DNA from: an uncultured Candidatus Saccharibacteria bacterium
Lineage (GTDB): Bacteria > Patescibacteriota > Minisyncoccia > Phycocordibacterales > DATDWN01
Length of the DNA stretch: 64,000 nucleotides
Assembly (NCBI GenBank): GCA_964603545.1
Contig: CAZRVD010000002.1
Location: 46,854 to 110,853 of the forward strand
Reading direction: 5' to 3'
The notes under the pieces are model-generated. The model was not told where the DNA came from. It saw only the letters and a program-made list of their open reading frames with translations, and searched no databases. Both the position numbers and the translations under genes were made by a program. Within the stretch, counting starts at the first letter, position 1, and each line of letters begins with the position of its first letter. Shown piece after piece: positions 986 through 1,920 of the stretch.

Positions 986-1049
986 ACGAAAAAACCGCCA
1001 CTCCTCCAAGTGTGCGGTTCATATATTTTGCCTCAGTATTGAGGACTTT

Positions 1050-1691
1050 TTACTTGTGAAGCCGGAAGACGACTTCGTGGTCCAACCCCGCAGCGTAGGT
1101 GTCGAGGTATCGGATTCCATTACCCGACCTTTCGGTCCGAATGTCATCACCTTCGCCCGCAGTGTTAAGCCACTTGTATCGGCCCTCCGTGTGCGTTTTG
1201 ATGCTCAGTCGTAGCGGGTCGCCGACTCGCTGGTACCGTATTGTCTCCATGACAAGCGAGAACCGAAAGTCCTCGTTGCCTTGAAGTGCAAGACGGAGTG
1301 CGGGAGCGTCGCCTGGAAGGCAGAGCGCGTACCCAATTTCGAGGATACGTCCGATGATCTGCTCAGTCGACGGGAGTTGCGTAAACCCGAGTTCACGCAA
1401 CGTCGCCTTTCCGAACTTGACCACCTTCCGTTCCTCGGACTGGAGATTGCACGACTCCAGGATGGTTCGTGCAACGGAAGTTATGTACATGTCTGCCGCC
1501 CCGAGTTCCTGGAGAAGTTCGGCAGCTGACTTCCCGCCAACCTCACATTCGAGGTAAACAGGGAGTTCGCCAACCCTGACGACTTTAGGGTCGTAGGTCC
1601 CGGCGAGGAAGCGCATTGCCTCCTTTTCACCGCCGAGCTTGTTGACGATCGCTTCGATCTGACCCAGCGTGAGATTGTTGTACTTAGCCAT
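1050..1691 (-). CDS. Hypothetical protein, strongly GC-rich orphan gene (probable horizontal acquisition)
   Basis: 213-aa ORF whose DNA is conspicuously GC-rich (by eye well above 50%), while the rest of the window is AT-rich. A strong GGAGAG SD sits 6 nt before the ATG. I found no recognisable domain by inspection. Confidence 0.6.
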   Translation of the reverse strand: MAKYNNLTLGQIEAIVNKLGGEKEAMRFLAGTYDPKVVRVGELPVYLECEVGGKSAAELLQELGAADMYITSVARTILESCNLQSEERKVVKFGKATLRELGFTQLPSTEQIIGRILEIGYALCLPGDAPALRLALQGNEDFRFSLVMETIRYQRVGDPLRLSIKTHTEGRYKWLNTAGEGDDIRTERSGNGIRYLDTYAAGLDHEVVFRLHK

Positions 1692-1759
1692 GTGACACTC
1701 TCCTTGATGCTGATAGCATCTTGGTTTCTCACTTCCCGTGAGTTAAGGGGCTTTCCGTT

Positions 1760-1820
1760 AGTGGTCAGCCAAAAAGTGCTTCAATTTATTTATATTGTAA
1801 GCCTCTTTTGGCTGACCACT
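1760..1820. promoter_or_regulatory. 15-bp perfect inverted repeat (AGTGGTCAGCCAAAA / TTTTGGCTGACCACT) with 31-bp spacer, ~70-130 bp upstream of the GC-rich ORF
   Basis: Arms at 1760-1774 and 1806-1820 are exact reverse complements. A smaller palindrome GATGCTGATAGCATC lies at 1713-1727 in the 5' leader. Confidence 0.5.
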
Positions 1821-1920
1821 TCACAAGTAATGTTAAAGAACTTTACTAACACATTATACCACAATTGGTACATAAAAGTCAAGTAAAAGCAGCCCTTAAA
1901 ATAAGGTTTTTTTGTATCAT

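What the first reader, a model, noticed from the sequence alone, without database searches (positions are those of the whole stretch)
1030..1830. GC-rich orphan gene island with strong SD and a flanking 15-bp inverted repeat
The 213-aa ORF at 1050-1691 (-) is strikingly GC-rich within an AT-rich genome. Unlike most genes here, it has a canonical GGAGAG SD. A 15-bp perfect inverted repeat with a 31-bp spacer (1760-1774 / 1806-1820) lies upstream of it, and a GATGCT-GAT-AGCATC hairpin sits in the leader. On its other side is an imperfect hairpin (993-1019) downstream of the HIT gene. These compositional and signal differences point to recent horizontal acquisition, possibly of a toxin, defence or phage-derived gene, with its own regulatory palindrome.
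Basis: seen in the sequence. Interest (0 to 1): 0.6.

Follow-up and report, generated by a model that had tools for sequence, protein, structure and literature searches.

The report
Stand-alone hypermutation-target gene with RNA leader

Summary
All sequence observations hold. The ORF at 1050-1691(-) is the strongest GC outlier in the window (GC3 0.67 against 0.29). It is the only one of 48 ORFs with a Shine-Dalgarno motif. The 15-bp inverted repeat and the leader hairpin are exact. It is not an orphan: a profile search finds 6,719 cluster representatives, none covered by Pfam. The predicted fold is C-type-lectin-like. In 10 related loci the gene's 3' end is the variable repeat of a diversity-generating retroelement (DGR), with template repeat, bAvd and reverse transcriptase just downstream, and 175 of 184 repeat mismatches lie at template adenines. 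The window copy has no template repeat or reverse transcriptase in 64 kb, so it is a stand-alone or remotely served DGR-type variable-protein gene. GC-richness is a family trait (28 of 28 loci, +12.6 points, tracking host GC), not proof of recent transfer. A syntenic relative carries a divergent family member in the same slot. Its three hairpins and a 3-bp pseudoknot are supported by covariation, and it is absent from Rfam. No toxin, defence or phage link was found. This is a known kind of gene with a new regulatory feature.

The parts
1853..1882 (-). Promoter: -35 TTGACT, 18-nt spacer, TG-extended -10 TATAAT; inferred transcription start near 1846
   Evidence: 11 of 12 consensus match. The same TTGACA/TATAAT arrangement stands upstream of the leader in related loci.
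1692..1846 (-). Structured 5' leader RNA of about 155 nt (P1, pseudoknot, P2, P3, SD)
   Evidence: The covariance model hits 1689-1836(-) at 108 bits, the only forward hit in the window. MFE is -57 kcal/mol, z=-5.4 against shuffles. Covariation is shown. No Rfam match.
1760..1820 (-). P1 long hairpin.
   Evidence: 19 aligned pairs, 12 with compensatory changes, 94% of cells paired. Loop length varies among homologues.
1735..1749 (-). Proposed 3-bp pseudoknot: CCC (1747-1749) pairs with GGG (1735-1737) in the P2 loop
   Evidence: 100% of cells paired in 20 sequences. Pair 130:144 is C-G in 14 and U-A in 6 sequences, with none broken. This is inferred, and only one of the three pairs covaries.
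1728..1742 (-). P2 hairpin CTCAC-GGGAA-GTGAG
   Evidence: 3 of 5 pairs have double compensatory changes, for example CTGGC/GCCAG, CCTC/GAGG and CTGC/GCAG.
1706..1720 (-).
   Evidence: 4 of 5 pairs have compensatory changes and 99% of cells are paired.
1698..1705 (-). Shine-Dalgarno-like AAGGAGAG, 6 nt before the ATG
   Evidence: Read directly from the sequence. It is unique among 48 ORFs in the window and conserved as AAGGAG in most family leaders.
1050..1691 (-). CDS, 213 aa: DGR-type variable protein with a C-type-lectin-like fold
1599..1691 (-). N-terminal two-helix module (MAKYNNLTLGQIEAIVNKLGGEKEAMRFLAG)
   Evidence: Conserved at protein level, with synonymous variation, across three body classes that BLASTP cannot link. 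Helices at 9-18 and 22-29.
1053..1244 (-). Variable-repeat-equivalent region (about aa 150-213), including a lineage-specific 16-aa insertion of low model confidence
   Evidence: It aligns to the VR of P0003 in L003. Against P0002, amino-acid identity is 59% here and 84% upstream, and dN is 0.275 against 0.099. pLDDT is below 50 at residues 185-196.
1031..1044 (-). Small 5-bp hairpin with a 4-nt loop (CCTCA-ATAC-TGAGG), 5 nt after the stop codon
   Evidence: It is conserved in L010 with one loop change. Any role is unknown. Whether it corresponds to the hairpin found downstream of IMH in some DGR targets was not shown.
993..1019 (-). Intrinsic terminator: 9-bp stem with one bulge, then T6. It is bidirectional and shared with the HIT gene.
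   Evidence: Read directly from the sequence. It is identical in the syntenic relative L010.

Best explanation
[quoted passage not shown] It encodes a protein of about 24 kDa. An N-terminal two-helix module is followed by a C-type-lectin-like domain whose last 60 or so residues form the ligand-binding surface. In many relatives that 3' segment is the variable repeat (VR) of a diversity-generating retroelement (DGR). A template repeat lies about 0.3 kb downstream, followed by bAvd and a reverse transcriptase carrying the LGxxxSQ motif. Together they rewrite the VR by adenine-specific mutagenesis (shown for relatives). The window copy has no template repeat or reverse transcriptase within 64 kb. 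The most likely reading is a stand-alone copy whose binding site is currently fixed and evolves by ordinary substitution and by allele replacement between conserved flanks (inferred). Service in trans by a DGR elsewhere in the genome is not excluded. Transcription starts from a near-consensus promoter. This RNA is conserved with covariation in front of family members across CPR lineages. Most probably it is a cis-regulatory element controlling translation or mRNA stability in response to an unknown protein or ligand (inferred). The GC-richness is a family-wide trait, not a signature of recent import.
For: Real gene: dN/dS is 0.13 over codons 1-150, and differences by codon position are 12/14/57.

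Family size: 6,719 representatives at E<=1e-3 and 3,964 at E<=1e-10. None of 80 members has a meaningful Pfam match: three members gave single chance-level hits (E about 0.005-0.008) to unrelated families.

DGR link: in L003 the order is VR, TR, bAvd (PF22296, E=6.9e-13), then RVT_1 reverse transcriptase. 9 of 26 species-representative loci have a reverse transcriptase 54-66% identical to the L003 enzyme plus a TR 82-89% identical to the gene's 3' end. Over those 9 loci plus L003, 175 of 184 TR-VR mismatches lie at TR adenines, and all but one of these are at codon positions 1 or 2. G-N-L-T-S-Q is invariant in the reverse transcriptases.

Window copy stand-alone: there is no TR-like repeat. 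No reverse transcriptase or Avd is found by tblastn or by a 9-sequence HMM, in the window or in the 4 kb beyond it.

Leader RNA: 19 of 28 RNAalifold pairs have compensatory changes. 95.7% of cells are paired against 27-42% for slid controls, and 0 of 500 shuffles reach the observed values. The model recovers leaders it was not trained on.

GC as a family trait: gene GC exceeds flank GC in 28 of 28 loci (p=7e-9), with r=0.70 against host GC. GC3 is 0.62 against 0.39 in flanking ORFs.

Synteny: L010 has the same slot, promoter, leader, first 31 residues and terminator, with a different protein body.
Confidence: 0.8

Rival explanations
1. The gene is an active remote target. A DGR (template repeat, Avd, reverse transcriptase) elsewhere in this genome, beyond the 64-kb window, still rewrites 1053-1244 in trans.
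For: Non-adjacent and remote DGR targets are documented (PMC5758913, read). 13 of 22 assessable family loci also lack an adjacent reverse transcriptase, so RT-less copies are common and could be served in trans. The ORF is intact, and its VR-equivalent part diverges about 3 times faster at non-synonymous sites. This reverse transcriptase clade is very abundant in CPR, with at least 8,000 clusters.
Against: There is none within 64 kb on one side or 4 kb on the other. [quoted passage not shown] The exact protein recurs on three contigs with no VR variants in 5.8 billion proteins, and the syntenic P0007 is identical on 16 contigs read. The IMH-like end is degenerate. No reverse transcriptase named for this MAG appeared among the best 120 hits, though that result is inconclusive.
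Confidence: 0.2
2. This is the first reader's view: a recently acquired horizontal-transfer island carrying a toxin, defence or phage-derived gene with its own regulatory palindrome.
For: The composition is extreme. It has the only SD in the window. The closest homologue lies in another genomic context. The body differs from the occupant of the same slot in a relative.
Against: PADLOC gave no hit, PHROGs only two weak chance-level matches (E 0.07 and 0.34), and NCBIfam and Pfam gave none. Nothing was found in IMG/VR or in viral structures. No integrase, transposase or direct repeats flank the gene. The slot is occupied by a GC-rich family member in a relative too. The GC offset is universal in the family and scales with host GC.
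Confidence: 0.05
3. The 15-bp inverted repeat is a double-stranded DNA site, either an operator for a dimeric regulator or a recombination site that mediates cassette exchange, and not an RNA stem.
For: It is a perfect palindrome lying just downstream of the promoter (about 33-95 nt beyond the -10 box). The conserved flanks around a swapped body would suit site-directed exchange.
Against: The arms covary while the spacer ranges from about 20 to 49 nt and often forms its own inner stem. In several loci P1 is replaced by a 4-5-bp hairpin. A fixed-geometry protein-DNA site would not tolerate that. The repeat lies downstream of the predicted transcription start, so it is transcribed. L001 lacks it yet keeps the gene.
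Confidence: 0.08
4. The GC-rich stretch is a structured non-coding RNA and the ORF arises by chance from the GC content.
For: GC-rich islands in AT-rich genomes are often RNA genes, and several overlapping ORFs occur in other frames.
Against: Substitutions are dominated by third codon positions and dN/dS is 0.13. Thousands of protein homologues exist. The fold is predicted with confidence. There is no Rfam hit.
Confidence: 0.02

Closest known systems
DGR variable proteins with a C-type-lectin fold (Bordetella phage Mtd, Treponema TvpA, Thermus TaqVP, and the small CPR and DPANN targets catalogued in DGR surveys)
   Same: The protein is small and lectin-fold. The variable residues sit in the C-terminal 45-60 aa. 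In relatives a TR, bAvd and a reverse transcriptase with LGxxxSQ lie adjacent, A-to-N changes fall at codon positions 1 and 2, and the 3' end after the mutated tract is conserved and IMH-like.
   Different: There is no sequence-detectable similarity to solved variable proteins or to the Pfam FGE-sulfatase or DUF1566 models. The family has a specific N-terminal two-helix module. The window copy has no TR or reverse transcriptase in 64 kb. The family carries a dedicated structured leader.
Non-adjacent or remote DGR target genes (Treponema denticola, Legionella, cyanobacteria)
   Same: It is a target-type gene located away from any reverse transcriptase.
   Different: For known remote targets a matching TR exists in the same genome. 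Here none could be shown, and the invariance of the protein across contigs suggests inactivity.
Small pseudoknotted 5'-UTR cis-regulators (for example the preQ1-I, SAM-II and guanidine-III riboswitch classes)
   Same: It lies in the 5' UTR. A compact hairpin has a loop that pairs with a nearby single strand. It sits next to the ribosome-binding site. Loop and linker nucleotides are highly conserved.
   Different: It matches none of the 4,227 Rfam models at E<=1. It has an additional long P1 of variable length. The SD is not visibly sequestered. No ligand is known, and its gene association (hypervariable binding proteins) is unlike that of any metabolite riboswitch.
RT-1 to RT-19 RNA motifs, including RT-10 of the Bordetella phage DGR (Weinberg et al. 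2017, PMC5737381)
   Same: These are structured RNAs associated with retroelement loci, and RT-10 is linked to a DGR.
   Different: Those motifs lie beside the reverse transcriptase gene, and RT-10 sits between TR and RT. This one lies in the 5' UTR of the target gene, persists where no reverse transcriptase is present, and matches no Rfam model.

Membership tests
DGR variable (target) protein | A 3'-terminal variable repeat with a cognate template repeat that differs from it almost only at template adenines | tested here: not met
   Window: no TR-like copy was found by blastn (word size 7) or by a pattern allowing A at every site. Relatives: met in 10 loci, with 175 of 184 mismatches at TR adenines. 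The window gene therefore qualifies by homology only.
DGR variable (target) protein | A DGR-type reverse transcriptase ([LIV]GxxxSQ, YxDD) and an Avd accessory gene in the same locus or genome | tested here: not met
   None in the window or in the 4 kb beyond it. The rest of the genome could not be searched, and one search was inconclusive. In relatives: RVT_1 with invariant GNLTSQ and YADD, and bAvd PF22296 in L003.
DGR variable (target) protein | C-type-lectin (or Ig) fold carrying the variable residues | tested here: met
DGR variable (target) protein | Homology of the whole protein to proven targets | tested here: met
   39% identity over 80% of its length to P0003, whose 3' end is a VR. 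It scores E=1.5e-77 against the family profile. BLASTP places it in body class A with 6 RT-linked members.
DGR variable (target) protein | An IMH-like conserved 3' end and a downstream hairpin | tested here: inconclusive
   The end …GTCGTCTTCCGGCTTCACAAGTAA resembles the family's …GTGTTCCGTCTCCGCAAGTAG but has CAC in place of CGC. A 5-bp hairpin follows 5 nt after the stop, but it is not a general family feature.
Any Rfam RNA family (leader) | A score at or near a family's gathering threshold | tested here: not met
   Only miRNA noise appeared, at 19-21 bits against thresholds of 80 or more. Four related loci gave nothing at E<=0.1.
Riboswitch (leader) | Conserved aptamer, ligand binding and an expression platform | not testable with these tools
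   A conserved, covarying structure is shown. No ligand, terminator-antiterminator pair or SD-sequestering helix could be identified.
Anti-phage defence or toxin gene | A match to known defence or toxin protein models, or a partner gene | tested here: not met
   PADLOC, Pfam and NCBIfam gave no hits. The neighbours are pgk and HIT.
Phage-derived gene | Relatives in phage genomes or viral protein families | tested here: not met
   The best PHROGs E-value is 0.07. No relative among IMG/VR contigs. No BFVD structural match at E<=0.001.

The most novel reading that the evidence does not exclude
The 155-nt leader (P1, pseudoknotted P2, P3, SD) may be a new class of riboregulator dedicated to hypervariable DGR-type binding proteins across the candidate phyla radiation. 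It precedes at least three body classes that BLASTP cannot link. It also precedes tandem genes that lack the N-terminal module, and it persists with or without an adjacent retroelement. This suggests that these episymbionts place their whole repertoire of diversified binding proteins under one RNA-sensed signal. The family-wide GC3 and pyrimidine-ending codon bias, in genomes of 30-55% GC, could then be a second signature of a constraint linked to adenine-directed mutagenesis.
Probability: 0.3. Interest if true: 0.7.

Novelty: new variant of a known kind. Interest (0 to 1): 0.5.

Why it matters
DGR variable proteins are thought to be how ultra-small CPR episymbionts adapt their binding to hosts, yet most are annotated 'hypothetical'. 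This case gives a name and a fold to a family with at least 6,700 cluster representatives that Pfam does not cover. It shows that many members (13 of 22 assessable loci, including this one) stand without an adjacent retroelement. It also reveals a conserved leader RNA, supported by covariation, and a shared N-terminal module, which imply common regulation or handling of these proteins. Finally, it is a caution for genome scans. A GC and SD outlier in an AT-rich, SD-less genome need not be a fresh import, because here the anomaly is a heritable property of the gene family.

Tried and rejected
1. Pfam, PHROGs, PADLOC and NCBIfam on the protein gave nothing significant. A PDB sequence-profile search gave only a spurious hit at E=0.011.

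2. The idea that the GC island is a non-coding RNA was rejected by the substitution pattern and by Rfam.

3. The 80-sequence alignment was too diverse for the search for related loci, so an 11-sequence alignment was used instead.

4. Search for the cognate template repeat in JGI metagenomes. I converted the VR into a pattern allowing 'the VR base or A' at each site. The second ran but matched only poly-A runs, because A satisfies every symbol.

5. Search for a reverse transcriptase from this MAG through the protein database. At least 8,000 clusters scored E<=1e-60, only the best 120 were listed, and none was named for Gr01-1014_46. The result is inconclusive.

6. The conserved element upstream of the promoter (1911-2038) first looked like part of a mobile unit shared with L001 and L031. 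It turned out to be a dispersed intergenic repeat with three more copies in the window.

7. Adenine avoidance was tested as the cause of the GC-richness. It holds on average for the family but not for the window gene.

8. A closing helix between the 5' end of the leader and the start-codon region, seen in the MFE fold, is not conserved in L010 or L031, so it was dropped.

Full report
**Origin and observation**

The exact protein is annotated 'hypothetical protein CEO12_537' from the MAG 'Parcubacteria group bacterium Gr01-1014_46', assembly GCA_007376085.1. The flagged region is as described. GC reaches 0.56 over 1001-1800 against a window mean of 0.374 (z about 5.0, the maximum in 64 kb). The ORF's GC3 is 0.667 against 0.291 +/- 0.067 for the window's 45 long ORFs. 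The 15-bp inverted repeat (1760-1774 / 1806-1820, 31-nt spacer), the hairpin at 1706-1720 and the AAGGAGAG box at 1698-1705 are exact. Of 48 ORFs, only this one has any SD-like core upstream. The neighbours are HIT and pgk.

**It is a real gene**

Against its closest homologue (P0002, 77% identity, contig L001), differences over codons 1-150 fall 12/14/57 by codon position, and dN/dS is 0.13. A non-coding RNA explanation for the GC island is therefore rejected. Rfam finds nothing there.

**It is not an orphan**

Pfam, PHROGs, PADLOC and NCBIfam give nothing, and the word-indexed search found only 7 relatives. A profile built from those 7 and run against 1.84 billion representatives found 6,719 proteins at E<=1e-3 and 3,964 at E<=1e-10. 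Most are 170-230 aa long. None of 80 sampled members has a meaningful Pfam match (three gave single chance-level hits to unrelated families, E about 0.005-0.008).

**What the family is**

The homologue P0003 (39% identity) lies between secY and adk next to a reverse transcriptase. Its last 157-164 nt are repeated about 460 nt downstream at 83-84% identity. Most mismatches are at adenines of the downstream copy. Between that copy and the RVT_1 gene lies a bAvd-like ORF (PF22296, E=6.9e-13). That is a canonical diversity-generating retroelement.

A scan of one genome per species gave 26 loci, nearly all from CPR lineages. Nine of them have a reverse transcriptase 54-66% identical to the L003 enzyme about 0.85 kb downstream, plus a template repeat 82-89% identical to the gene's 3' end. 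Four loci are too short to judge, leaving 9 of 22 assessable loci RT-linked. Over those nine loci plus L003, 175 of 184 TR-VR mismatches are at TR adenines, and all but one of these lie at codon positions 1 or 2. The reverse transcriptases keep G-N-L-T-S-Q and Y-A-D-D invariant. From my own knowledge, [LIV]GxxxSQ is the DGR hallmark.

**The window copy**

By alignment, residues of about 150-213 (nt 1053-1244) correspond to the variable repeat. The window holds no second copy of that segment. It holds no reverse transcriptase or Avd by tblastn, or by an HMM of nine CPR DGR reverse transcriptases. The same is true of the 4 kb beyond the window start. There is no second family member either.

The VR-equivalent part has diverged faster from P0002 (59% against 84% amino-acid identity; dN 0.275 against 0.099), but dN/dS is 0.30, not above 1. 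The protein recurs unchanged on three contigs, with no VR variants in the database. I therefore favour a stand-alone copy that is not currently diversified. I give about 0.2 to service in trans by a DGR elsewhere. Remote targets are known, but a survey reports that CPR DGRs usually have one target gene (PMC5758913). My two attempts to settle this failed. One was a mis-designed pattern that matched poly-A. The other was a protein search swamped by at least 8,000 reverse transcriptase clusters.

**The palindromes are an RNA**

A TTGACT-18-TATAAT promoter (11 of 12 match, TG-extended) lies at 1882-1853 on the gene's strand.

Upstream regions of family genes from different CPR lineages share the same architecture:
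- a long P1 (GTCATAGCCAAAAG…TTTTCTGGCTATGAC, or variants of it), or a short hairpin in its place;
- GCCCCnTAAC;
- P2 with a GGGNA loop;
- P3 with an A-rich loop;
- AAGGAG.

In a 20-sequence alignment, RNAalifold predicts 28 pairs, 19 of them with double compensatory changes. With a proposed 3-bp pseudoknot added, 95.7% of cells pair, against 27-42% when partners are slid by 1-3 columns. Twenty pairs show compensatory change, and no shuffle out of 500 reaches the observed values. The pseudoknot pair 130:144 is C-G in 14 sequences and U-A in 6, never broken.

A covariance model built on this alignment hits the window once on the sense strand (1689-1836, 108 bits). It also recovers nine leaders it was not trained on, and two further copies in L019 in front of tandem genes that lack the N-terminal module. 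The leader folds much better than shuffles (z=-5.4). It matches no Rfam family, here or in four related loci. The RT-associated motifs of Weinberg et al. lie elsewhere, between TR and RT.

The arms covary while the distance between them varies, so an RNA stem explains the palindrome better than a DNA operator does. Its function is inferred only. I consider a cis-regulator of translation or stability most likely. The SD is not visibly sequestered, so I cannot name a switching mechanism.

**N-terminal module**

The first 31 or so residues (MKYxxLxLGQ[IV]EAIVNKLGG…) form two predicted helices. They are conserved at protein level, with synonymous variation, in front of three body classes that BLASTP cannot connect. 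The classes have 18, 9 and 3 loci, and each contains RT-linked members. P0003 lacks both the module and the leader. No signal peptide is evident. The role of the module is unknown.

**Composition**

Family genes are more GC-rich than their flanks in 28 of 28 loci (mean 0.542 against 0.416; p=7e-9), and gene GC correlates with flank GC (r=0.70). GC3 is 0.62 against 0.39 in flanking ORFs. Third positions favour C over G and T over A. The offset is therefore a property of the family that persists while the genes track their hosts. It is not the fingerprint of a recent donor. Its cause is unresolved, and adenine avoidance does not hold for the window gene itself.

**History of the locus**

A related genome (L010; pgk 76% identical in DNA) has the same pgk-[gene]-HIT-recJ order. 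Its promoter, leader and first 22 codons are 85-88% identical to the window, and its post-stop hairpin and terminator are 86-95% identical. Both segments are more conserved than pgk or HIT. Yet its protein (P0007, 171 aa) aligns by BLASTP only over residues 1-31, although it matches the family profile. It is GC-rich too. The closest homologue of the window gene lies in another context. The slot is thus old, while its content has been replaced or has diverged extremely fast between conserved flanks. This is the part of the 'horizontal acquisition' idea that survives.

**What it is not**

There is no relative in IMG/VR, no viral structural neighbour, no defence or toxin model hit and no mobility gene or flanking direct repeat.

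**Verdict**

This is a known kind of gene, a CPR DGR-type variable protein, in a less-studied state with no retroelement nearby. It carries a conserved leader RNA and an N-terminal module that I could not find described. Interest is moderate, at 0.5.

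Noticed in passing
window 1911-2038(-), 38911-39038(-), 60838-60955(+), 8267-8352(-); also L001 1080-1217 and L031 4715-4813: A dispersed intergenic repeat of about 125 nt, 72-82% identical between window copies and 91% to L031. At least three of the four window copies begin immediately after the stop codon of the upstream gene, in that gene's orientation. It contains a hairpin CCTTAY…RTAAGG with compensatory changes, followed by a T-run. It could be a repeated terminator or 3'-UTR element, or a MITE-like sequence.
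   Followed up: partly
whole window (48 ORFs of at least 120 aa): 47 of 48 ORFs have no Shine-Dalgarno-like core in the 17 nt scanned upstream of their ATG (positions -20 to -4). Many have a TATAAT-like box about 5-12 nt before the ATG, which suggests leaderless or near-leaderless mRNAs. The flagged gene is the only exception. Whether this organism's 16S rRNA keeps an anti-SD could not be checked, because no rRNA lies in the window.
   Followed up: partly
L013 5592-5680, L018 5601-5690, L021 5619-5710, L014, L019, L020, L026, L027 (3' UTRs of family genes): Between the stop codon and the terminator, many family genes carry 3-8 tandem, irregularly spaced CTTTGA / CCTTGG / CTTAG motifs. These are absent from the window gene, L010, L001 and L015. 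They could be a protein-binding platform or a DGR-related cis element.
   Followed up: no
L019 4852-7685: Three consecutive genes each carry the leader RNA (108.9, 51.9 and 63.7 bits). Only the first has the N-terminal module, and the third ends in a VR-like Trp/Arg-rich tail. The leader is therefore not tied to the N-terminal module.
   Followed up: partly
28 family loci (L001-L038) against their flanks: The family shows a synonymous-site bias: GC3 0.62 against 0.39, C3 above G3, and T3 above A3 on the coding strand (A3/(A3+T3) 0.38 against 0.46, p about 1e-4). In L003 the adjacent reverse transcriptase gene is more AT-rich than the host. The cause is unknown.
   Followed up: partly
window 19900-20800 and 46200-47300: These are the second and third GC peaks of the window (0.48-0.49, z about 3). 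The first abuts a tRNA at 20667-20737. The second lies inside the ORF at 45675-47330. Neither was examined further.
   Followed up: no
window 4367-11375(-): A type IV pilus or type II secretion-like cluster (T2SSE ATPase, T2SSF, several N-methyl pilin-like proteins) lies three genes from the variable-protein gene. The same arrangement occurs in the syntenic relative L010. No functional link was tested.
   Followed up: no
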